NCBI RefSeq assembly: GCF_009914755.1
Contig: NC_060936.1
DNA from: the human T2T-CHM13v2.0 reference genome, Homo sapiens
Length of the DNA: 64,000 nucleotides
Strand: one strand, 5' to 3'
Part shown: one piece after another, positions 23,820-26,800 of the stretch
Position numbering within the stretch: the first letter of the stretch is position 1
How the letters are laid out: each line of letters begins with the position of its first letter
Program-made: the position numbers and the translations under genes
The notes under the pieces: generated by a model
Database searches by the model: none
What the model was told of the DNA's origin: nothing
What the model saw: the letters and a program-made list of their open reading frames with translations, nothing else

Positions 23820-26800
23820 GGTGATTTCTGCATTTCCAACTGAGGAACGCAGCTCCTCACCAGCAACGGAACAAAGCTGGATGGAGAATGACTTTGACGA
23901 GTTGAGAGAAGAAGGCTTCAGACGATCAAACTACTCCGAGCTACAGGAGGAAATTCGAACCAATGGCAAAGAAGTTAAAAGCTTTGAAAAAAATTAGACG
24001 AATGGATAACTAGAATAACGAATGCAGAGAGGTCCTTAAAGGACCTGATGGAGCTGAAAACCAAGGCATGAGAGCTATGTGACGAATGCAGAAGCCTCAG
24101 TAGCTGATGTGATCAACTGGAAGAAAGGGTATCAGTGATGGAAGACGAAATGAATGAAATGAAGCGAGAAGAGAAGTTTAGAGCAAAAAGAATAAAAAGA
24201 AACGAACAAAGCCTCCAAGAAATATGGGACTATGTAAAAAGACCAAATCTATGTCTGATTGGTGTACCTGAAAGTGACGGGGAGAATGGAACCAAGTTGG
24301 AAAACACTCTGCAGGATATTATCCAGGAGAACTTCCCCAATCTAGCAAGAGAGGCCAACATTCAAATTCAGGAAATACAGAGACCGCCACAAAGATACTC
24401 CTCGAGAAGAGCAAACTCCAAGATCAAGAATTTGGTCAGATTCACCAAAGTTGAAATGAAGGAAAAAATGTTAAAGGCAGCTGGAGAGAAAGGTCGGGTT
24501 ACCCACAAAGGGAAGCCCATCAGACTAACAGCTGATCTCTCAGCAGAAACTCTACAAGCCAGAAGAGAGGGGGACCAATATTTAACATTCTTAAAGGGAA
24601 GAATTTTCAACCCAGAATTTCATATCCAGCCAAACTAAGCTGCATAAGTGAAGGAGAAATAAAATATTTTACAGACAAGTAAATGCTGAGAGATTCTGTC
24701 ACCACCAGGCCTGCCCTAAAAGAGCTCCTGAAGGAGGCACTAAACATGGAAAGGAACAACCAGTACCAGCCACTGCAAAAACGTGCCAAATTGTAAAGAC
24801 CATCAAAGCTAGGAAGAAACTGCATCAACTAACGAGCTAAACAACCAGCTAACATCATAATGACAGGATCAAATTCACACATAACAATATTAACTTTAAA
24901 TGTAAATGGACGAAATGCTCCAATTAAAAGACACAGACTGGCAAACTGGATAAAGAGTCAAGACCCATCAGTGTGCTGTATTCAGGAAACCCATGTCACG
25001 TGCAGAGACACACATAGGCTCAAAATAAAGGGATGGAGGAAGATCTACCAAACAAATGGAAAACAAAAAAAGGCAGGGGTTGCAATCCTAGTCTCTGATA
25101 AAACAGACTTTAAACCAGCAAAGATCAAAAGAGACAAAGAAGGCCATTACATAATGGTAAAGGGATCAATTCAACAAGAAGAGCTAACTATCCTAAATAT
25201 ATATGCACCCAATACAGGAGCACCCAGATTGATAAAGCAAGTCCTTAGTGACCTACAAAGAGACTTAGACTCCCACACAATAATAGTAGGAGACTTTAAC
25301 ACCCCACTGTCAACATTAGACAGATCAACGAGACAGAAAGTTAACAAGGATACCCAGGAATTGAACTCAGCTCTGCACCAAGCAGACCTAATAGACATAG
25401 GTCTATTAGGTAGACCTATGACTATTATAGACCCCAAATCAACAGAATATACATTCTTTTCAGCACCACACCACACCTACTCCAAAATTGACCACACAGT
25501 TGGAAGTAAAGCACCCCTCAGCAAATGTAAAAGAACAGAAATTATAACAAACTGTCTCTCAGACCACAGTGCAATCAAACTAGAACTCAGGATTAAGAAA
25601 CTCACTCAAAACCACTCAACTACATGGAAACTGAACAACCTGCTCCTGAATGACTACTGGGTACATAATGAAATGAAGGCAGAAATACAGATGTTCTTTG
25701 AAACCAACGAGAACAAAGACACAACATACCAGAATCTCTGGGACGCATTCAAAGCAGCGTGTAGAGGTAAATTTATAGCACTAAATGCCCACAAGAGAAA
25801 GCAGGAAAGATCCAAAATTGACACCCTAACATCACACTTAAAAGAACTAGAAAAGCAAGAGCAAACACATTCAAAAGCTAGCAGAAGGCAAGAAATAACT
25901 AAGATCCGAGCAGAACTGAAGGAAATAGAGACACAAAAAACCCTTCAAAAAATTAATGAATCCAGGAGCTGGTTTTTTGAAAAGATCAACAAAATTGATA
26001 GACCACTAGCAAGACTAATAAAGAAGAAAACAGAGAAGAATCAAATAGACGCAATAAAAAATGATAAAGGGGATATCACCACTGATCCCACAGAAATGCA
26101 AACTACGATCAGAGAATACTACAAACACCTCTATGAAAATAAACTAGAAAATCTAGAAGAAATGGATAAATTCCTCGACACATACATCCTCCCAAGACTA
26201 AACCAGGAAGAAGTTGAATCTCTGAATACACCAATAACAGGCTCTGAAATTGAGGCAATAATCAATAGCTTACCAACCAAAAAAAGTCCAGGACCAGATG
26301 GATTCACAGCTGAATTCTACCAGAGGTACAAAGAGGAGCTGTTACCATTCCTTCTGAAACTATTCCAATCAATAGAAAAAGAAGGAATCCTCCCTAACTC
26401 ATTTTATGAGGCCAGCATCATCCTGATACCAAAGCCTGGCAAAGACACAACCAAAAAAGAGAATTTTAGACCAATATCCTTGACGAACATCGATGCAAAA
26501 ATCCTCAATAAAATACTGGCAAACCGAATCCAGCAGCACATCAAAAAGCTTATCCACCATGATCAAGTGGGCTTCATCCCTGGGATGCAAGGCTGGTTCA
26601 ACATACACAAATCAATAAATGATTTGCATATAAATAGAACCAAAGACAAAAACCACATGATTATCTCAATAGATGCAGAAAAGGCCTTTGACAAAATTCA
26701 ACAACTCTTCATGCTAAAAACTCTCAATAAATTAAGTACTGATAGGATGTATCTCAAAATAATAAGAGCTATCTGTGACAAACCCACAGCCAATATCATA

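What the first reader, a model, noticed from the sequence alone, without database searches (positions are those of the whole stretch)
23820..23880. L1 retrotransposed from a spliced RNA (SpIRE-type 5'UTR-to-ORF1 junction)
Seen: the element begins GGTGATTTCTGCATTTCCAACTGAG and continues directly into GAACGCAGCTCCTCACCAGCAACGG, which is early ORF1. The unspliced L1 in this window has CAACTGAG|GTACCC (GT at 47788) and CTCCTCCAAAG|GATC (AG at 49105-49106) at the homologous positions, so the missing segment is a precise GT...AG intron. Established: this matches the known L1 donor near nt 97 and acceptor near nt 976 (spliced integrated retrotransposed elements). Inference: the copy lost its promoter and ORF1 start and probably needed ORF1p in trans or a truncated ORF1p.
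Basis: partly seen in the sequence, partly recalled or inferred. Interest (0 to 1): 0.8.

Follow-up and report, generated by a model that had tools for sequence, protein, structure and literature searches.

The report
Known spliced L1 copy, SpIRE(97/976)-9

Summary
At window 23820 an L1 starts with 25 nt of 5'UTR ending in CTGAG. It runs straight into GAACGCAG of early ORF1, with the junction at 23844|23845. The unspliced L1 in the same window has GT (47788-47789) and AG (49105-49106) at the matching points. So do 9 of 12 closer unspliced relatives fetched from the same genome.

The same junction occurs at 25 separate places in this genome. These copies do not form one branch of the L1 tree, so the event recurred. 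That fits splicing, not a chance deletion.

The locus is already published. Larson et al. 2018 (PLoS Biol, PMC5860796) list it as SpIRE(97/976)-9, subfamily PA4, hg38 chr12:22341736. The filled-site sequence they print reads the same by eye as the window over the roughly 400 bases shown. The same paper shows by experiment that such RNAs lack the ORF1 start, cannot move on their own, and move at low level when ORF1p is supplied in trans.

Two small additions:
- The "12 untemplated" bases and the 6-bp target duplication given for this copy look wrong. Those bases belong to the old L1 that was hit, and I see no duplication.
- 14 of the 25 junction loci are not in the 2018 list.

Verdict: real and correctly read, but already known. 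Interest is low.

The parts
23516..23819 (+). 5' flank: fragment of a much older L1 (region matching the C-terminal end of ORF1) into which the spliced L1 inserted
   Evidence: 40 paralogous matches in the genome at 72-76% identity; a profile of 19 paralogs aligns to window 23516-23817, E 5.6e-68; the flank also aligns to the ORF1 3' region of the two L1s in the window.
23820..23844 (+). Remnant of L1 exon 1: the last 25 nt of the 5'UTR before the donor (about L1.3 nt 73-97), so the copy is also 5' truncated
   Evidence: 25 of 25 identical to window 47763-47787; 22 of 25 junction loci carry this exon back to the L1 start; this one does not.
23844..23845 (+). Splice junction, CTGAG|GAACGCAG
23845..24832 (+). 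ORF1 remnant lacking its first 22 codons and its AUG. The first in-frame AUG is at 23881-23883. The frame is now broken, with the first stop at 23995-23997.
   Evidence: 50 codons are open after the junction, then many stops. (paper): the splice removes 66 nt of ORF1, and the next AUG lies 102 nt after the canonical one.
24833..28862 (+). ORF2 region, decayed into three open stretches of 887, 121 and 372 codons
28863..28950 (+). L1 3'UTR end and degenerate A-rich tail with AAAT-type repeats
   Evidence: The blastn match to the other L1 ends at 28927.
28951..29250 (+). 3' flank: continuation of the same old L1 fragment
   Evidence: the profile of paralogs aligns to this flank, securely from about 28963; securely from 28987 when the tail is left out.
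47700..54170 (+). Unspliced full-length older L1 used as the comparison. Donor GT is at 47788-47789 and acceptor AG at 49105-49106.

Best explanation
An L1PA4 transcript was spliced by the cell's spliceosome. The donor sits just after 5'UTR nt 97 (GT) and the acceptor inside ORF1 (AG at L1.3 nt 974-975). In PA4-type elements this removes an intron of about 1 kb, namely most of the 5'UTR with its promoter and the first 22 codons of ORF1. The spliced RNA was then reverse-transcribed into chromosome 12 by L1 ORF2p, with ORF1p supplied by another L1. It landed inside an old L1 fragment about 7 kb upstream of the ST8SIA1 start. Reverse transcription or 5' joining stopped 25 nt above the junction, so the copy is also 5' truncated. 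It was dead on arrival, with no promoter and no full ORF1, and has since decayed. Shown here: the junction, the GT/AG bounds, collinearity, recurrence at independent loci, decay, and identity with the published locus. Taken from the paper: the spliced RNA exists and needs ORF1p in trans. Inferred: the order of events at this particular locus.
For: - Junction and GT/AG bounds.
- Closer relatives: 1763 places carry the unspliced acceptor context with at most 1 mismatch. Of 12 fetched, 9 have CTGAG|GT upstream, with introns of 874 nt (2 copies) or 978-1014 nt (7 copies). The other 3 showed no donor anchor.
- A pyrimidine run (CCTCTCCTCCTCC) lies just before the AG.
- Recurrence: 25 junction loci against 0 for the control pattern, each with different flanks.
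- Tree of 25 spliced and 12 unspliced copies: the 'spliced' label needs 11 changes, at least 7 of them forced by well-supported branches. Shuffled labels need 10.4 on average, so the spliced copies are not one lineage.
- Published record: S1 Table row and S1 Data entry for SpIRE(97/976)-9.
- Published experiments: truncated ORF1p of about 33 and 27 kDa, no retrotransposition in cis, low-level rescue by ORF1p drivers.
Against: - The break has 3 nt of shared sequence (AG|G). In addition, 10 of the 14 bases after the donor resemble the start of exon 2, so a homology-guided jump is not excluded by sequence alone.
- I find no target-site duplication at this locus, so one hallmark of a clean single retrotransposition event is missing.
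- No primate orthologue could be examined, so a deletion after insertion is not directly excluded for this copy.
- The tree has only 12 unspliced controls, all of one acceptor type, and two long-branch rows (L072, L073).
Confidence: 0.93

Rival explanations
1. The reverse transcriptase jumped within an unspliced L1 RNA between two short similar stretches during insertion. This would give the same deletion without any splicing.
For: The two break sides share 3 nt (AG|G). The 14 bases after the donor match the start of exon 2 at 10 positions in the window's L1. A homology-guided jump could in principle recur.
Against: The bounds are exactly GT and AG, with a pyrimidine run before the AG. According to the paper, the same donor is joined to two other AG acceptors (622, 790) in other copies, and spliced L1 RNAs were detected in cells. 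The text search of that paper found no mention of template switching.
Confidence: 0.03
2. An ordinary 5'-truncated L1PA4 inserted unspliced and later lost about 1 kb through a genomic deletion.
For: No orthologue was examined here. The copy lacks a clear target-site duplication.
Against: The identical junction occurs at 25 places with different flanks. The breaks fall on GT/AG. A random deletion would not repeat itself.
Confidence: 0.02
3. The copy is spliced-type, but it was copied from an older genomic spliced L1 driven by a nearby promoter, not from a freshly spliced RNA.
For: A 2025 preprint (10.1101/2025.02.02.635956, passage read) reports one 97/622-type spliced L1 that regained mobility through a host gene promoter.
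Against: In the tree this copy sits alone on the L1 ladder, not beside another spliced copy. A 97/976 construct did not retrotranspose in cis even with a CMV promoter.
Confidence: 0.04

Closest known systems
SpIRE97/976 (5'UTR/ORF1 spliced integrated retrotransposed elements; Larson et al. 2018, after Belancio et al.)
   Same: Same donor, same acceptor, same loss of promoter and ORF1 start. This very locus is entry number 9 of the published list of 11.
   Different: Nothing in kind. In detail, it keeps only 25 nt of exon 1, whereas 22 of 25 junction loci keep exon 1 back to the L1 start. Being PA4, its intron was about 1 kb rather than the 878 nt counted on L1.3. My reading of its target site also differs from the published one (no duplication, no untemplated bases).
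SpIRE97/622 and SpIRE97/790 (intra-5'UTR spliced L1 copies)
   Same: Same donor after nt 97, and the same route of a spliced RNA that is then retrotransposed.
   Different: Their acceptors lie inside the 5'UTR, so ORF1 stays whole and the RNA can still act in cis. Here ORF1 is cut.
Processed pseudogenes and ordinary 5'-truncated L1 insertions
   Same: Intron-less copies of RNA made by the L1 machinery, with an A-rich tail and truncation at the 5' end.
   Different: Here the spliced RNA is L1's own, and the truncation point lies upstream of the splice junction.

Membership tests
SpIRE97/976 | L1 sequence collinear on both sides of one internal gap | tested here: met
   23820-23858 matches 47763-47801, and 23865-28927 matches 49132-54159.
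SpIRE97/976 | The gap starts at GT right after the 5'UTR ...CTGAG (L1.3 nt 97) and ends at AG before GAACGCAG of ORF1 (L1.3 nt 976) | tested here: met
   In one search, 9 of 12 unspliced relatives show CTGAG|GT. All 12 show AAAG|GAACGC, but that was part of the search pattern. L1.3 numbering is taken from the paper.
SpIRE97/976 | A-rich tail at the 3' end | tested here: met
   degenerate A-rich tail at about 28916-28950.
SpIRE97/976 | Target-site duplication flanking the insertion | tested here: not met
   no copy of the last 8, 10 or 13 nt of the 5' flank lies behind the tail, allowing 2, 2 and 3 substitutions; the two flanks continue one another on a profile of paralogs. The paper lists a 6-bp duplication for this copy and says the site could not be resolved to the base pair. 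The paper describes duplications as general rather than universal and prints at least one entry as 'No TSD Present', so this does not bar membership.
SpIRE97/976 | Listed in the curated catalogue | tested here: met
   S1 Table, row -9; S1 Data, Clone 9, same sequence by eye.
SpIRE97/976 | Insertion, not later deletion: orthologues carry the same junction or an empty site | not testable with these tools
SpIRE97/976 | The spliced RNA exists and needs ORF1p in trans | not testable with these tools
   Taken from the paper's experiments.

The most novel reading that the evidence does not exclude
The 97/976 class is more than twice as large as catalogued. This genome holds 25 loci with the junction. 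Fourteen of them are absent from the 2018 list and sit mostly on deeper branches of the L1 tree. That would mean probes built on the young L1.3 under-count older spliced insertions. It would also mean that splicing into ORF1 has been removing L1 transcripts since before L1PA4. In addition, this copy integrated without a target duplication or untemplated bases, contrary to its published description.
Probability: 0.6. Interest if true: 0.3.

Novelty: already known. Interest (0 to 1): 0.15.

Why it matters
The finding itself adds nothing new. It re-identifies a catalogued element of a class whose mechanism has been tested at the bench. It does show that the first-stage reader can recognise a spliced L1 from raw sequence alone. 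The two side results have modest value for people who curate L1 insertions. One is a corrected target-site reading for this copy. The other is 14 junction loci missing from the published list, which bears on how often splicing has disabled L1 RNAs.

Tried and rejected
- Pairwise alignment of the 3' flank to single paralogs of the old L1 gave scattered start points, with paralog gaps from -40 to +47. It was dropped in favour of a profile of 19 paralogs. Even the profile does not fix the first 12-35 nt of the 3' flank.
- Aligning the flanks to the two young L1s in the window placed the 5' flank but was too distant for the 3' flank.
- The first 28-mer search with 2 mismatches (356 matches) mostly picked up unspliced copies, because GGTACCCAG is only two changes from GGAACGCAG. 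A longer junction-specific pattern replaced it.
- My regex missed locus L016. The same place was recovered as L075.
- A literature search for a re-census of spliced L1 copies in the T2T assembly found 2 papers, both irrelevant. A search for the Belancio 2006 paper did not bring it up among the 8 papers listed of 14 found, so I did not read it.
- Subfamily was not tested against consensus sequences. PA4 is the paper's assignment.

Full report
**The observation.** Window 23820-23869 reads GGTGATTTCTGCATTTCCAACTGAG followed directly by GAACGCAGCTCCTCACCAGCAACGG. The full-length, older L1 that starts near 47700 in the same window reads CAACTGAG|GTACCC, with GT at 47788-47789. It reads CTCCTCCAAAG|GATCAC, with AG at 49105-49106.

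A blastn of the two elements gives two collinear blocks. Window 23820-23858 matches 47763-47801, and 23865-28927 matches 49132-54159 at 87.4% over 5085 columns. Relative to that L1, the copy at 23820 lacks exactly the stretch that begins with GT and ends with AG.

One caveat applies. AG before the break and G after it are shared by both sides. The break can be drawn in four ways, and only one of them gives GT...AG. In addition, 10 of the 14 bases after the donor resemble the start of exon 2.

**Closer relatives.** The window's full-length L1 is only 87% like the spliced copy, so I looked for unspliced copies of the same type.
- The acceptor context with the spliced copy's own exon-2 sequence occurs at 1763 places in this genome with at most one mismatch.
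- Of 12 fetched with 1.5 kb of flank, 9 have CTGAG|GT upstream. Intron lengths are 874 nt (2 copies, CCATCTGAG type), 1014 nt (2) and 978-997 nt (5, CCAACTGAG type like ours). The other 3 showed no donor anchor and are probably truncated.
- A pyrimidine run lies just before the AG in all 12.
- For this PA4-type copy the removed intron was therefore about 1 kb. The figure of 878 nt and the name 97/976 are L1.3 numbering.

**Recurrence.** A junction-specific 34-mer with up to 3 mismatches finds 25 places in the genome (10 forward, 15 reverse). The reversed control pattern finds none.
- The flanks differ at every place, so these are separate insertions.
- Twenty-two of the 25 carry exon 1 back to the start of L1.
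- Three are cut inside exon 1: this one (25 nt left), one on contig 1 near 172.59 Mb (about 12 nt left), and one on contig 15 near 51.87 Mb (about 9 nt left).

I built a maximum-likelihood tree of the 1.4 kb after the junction for the 25 spliced and 12 unspliced copies. It shows the usual ladder-like L1 tree with spliced copies scattered along it. The label 'spliced' needs 11 changes, at least 7 of them forced by well-supported branches. Shuffled labels need 10.4 on average. The junction therefore arose many times.

Limits of the tree: only 12 unspliced controls, all of one acceptor type, and two long-branch rows (L072, L073) whose place is unsure. The terminal branch of our copy is 0.035 changes per site.

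**State of the copy.**
- After the junction the ORF1 frame stays open for 50 codons and then meets a stop at 23995-23997, with many more behind it.
- The first in-frame AUG, at 23881-23883, is the one the paper places 102 nt after the canonical start.
- ORF2 is split into open stretches of 887, 121 and 372 codons.
- The 3' end is a degenerate A-rich tail ending near 28950.
- The copy lies about 7 kb upstream of the ST8SIA1 start (16735, minus strand, per the annotation given) and in no annotated gene.

**It is already published.** I read passages, sections 7, 8 and 21, and supplements 1 and 2 of Larson et al. 2018, PLoS Biol 16:e2003067 (PMC5860796).
- The paper names this class SpIRE97/976 and lists 11 members.
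- The S1 Table row SpIRE(97/976)-9 reads: PA4, chromosome 12, start 22341736 (hg38), length 5101, cleavage site TTAT/C, TSD 6, "5' 12 untemp", degenerate poly(A).
- S1 Data prints 'Clone 9; PA4; SpIRE(97/976)-9: Filled site spans chr12:22341736-22346998'. Its flank and junction sequence reads the same by eye as window 23755 onward over the roughly 400 bases shown.
- The paper reports that the splice removes 66 nt of ORF1 including the AUG. A construct with this deletion makes ORF1p of about 33 and 27 kDa and does not retrotranspose in cis even with a CMV promoter. It is mobilised at low level when ORF1p is supplied in trans.

**The target site.** Here my reading differs from the table. Both flanks belong to one old L1 fragment.
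- The 5' flank finds 40 paralogous matches in the genome at 72-76% identity. Twenty-eight of these 40 alignments run to query base 317 or beyond, which is window 23816 or beyond.
- A profile built from 19 paralogs aligns to window 23516-23817 with E 5.6e-68.
- That alignment includes 23806-23817, the 12 bases called untemplated. Ten of these 12 equal the profile consensus (binomial tail about 4e-5 to 8e-4).
- Ten of 19 pairwise alignments run on to 23820.
- The 3' flank aligns to the same profile just downstream. It is secure from about 28963 when the tail is included, and from 28987 when it is left out.
- No copy of the last 8 to 13 bases of the 5' flank lies behind the tail.

The simplest reading has three parts. 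The 12 bases are target DNA. The two ATAAAT hexamers are different A-rich parts of the old L1. The insertion has no visible duplication, and at most about 10-20 bp of target are unaccounted for. The authors themselves note that this site could not be resolved to the base pair. This does not change what the element is.

**Extra loci.** Eleven of the 25 junction loci correspond to the 11 published ones. I matched them by chromosome and a consistent coordinate offset, and matched ours by sequence. For the other 14, a 15- to 21-nt string from the 5' flank or L1 start is absent from S1 Data. Two positive controls (entries -8 and -9) are found.

The published search used 100-nt probes from L1.3 with more than 95% identity. 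That would miss diverged copies. Seven of the 14 sit in the deeper clade of the tree. I did not read Belancio et al. 2006 or 2008 (one search did not list them), so I cannot say whether those lists hold any of the 14. A search for 'SpIREs' with 'T2T' found nothing relevant.

**Rivals.**
- A reverse-transcriptase jump between the short similar stretches would give the same sequence. It does not explain the exact GT/AG, the pyrimidine run, or the use of the same donor with other AG acceptors reported in the paper.
- A later genomic deletion does not explain 25 identical junctions.
- Copying from an older genomic spliced L1 is possible in principle, and a 2025 preprint reports one such case for the 97/622 type. 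In the tree, however, our copy does not pair with another spliced copy.
- No primate orthologue could be examined. That remains the one direct test not done.

**Verdict.** The finding is already known, down to this locus.

Noticed in passing
Own genome, loci L065, L066, L067, L072, L074, L077, L079-L086: Fourteen loci carry the same 97/976-type junction but are not in the 2018 catalogue of 11. Strings from their flanks are absent from S1 Data, while two control strings are found.
   Followed up: partly
window 23806-23817 and 28953-28958: The '12 untemplated' bases and the 6-bp target duplication published for this copy look like parts of the old L1 that was hit. Ten of the 12 bases match a profile of 19 paralogs, and no duplication is visible.
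   Followed up: yes
L072 (contig 1, about 172.59 Mb): Another 97/976-type junction with only about 12 nt of exon 1. It sits directly behind sense-strand sequence that I recognise from memory as L1 ORF2-like. It could be a nested insertion or a chimera.
   Followed up: no
window 47700-54170: A full-length older L1, 87% like the spliced copy, with donor and acceptor both intact. By the hub's mask list, most of its 5'UTR (before 48754) appears among none of the masked stretches listed.
   Followed up: partly
window 23845-23858 against 47788-47801: The first 14 bases of exon 2 match the first 14 bases of the intron at 10 positions, so the blastn match runs past the junction.
   Followed up: partly
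L031-L042: The donor-to-acceptor distance falls into classes of 874, about 978-997 and 1014 nt. This fits the 129-bp 5'UTR segment that the paper says was lost between L1PA3 and L1PA2.
   Followed up: no
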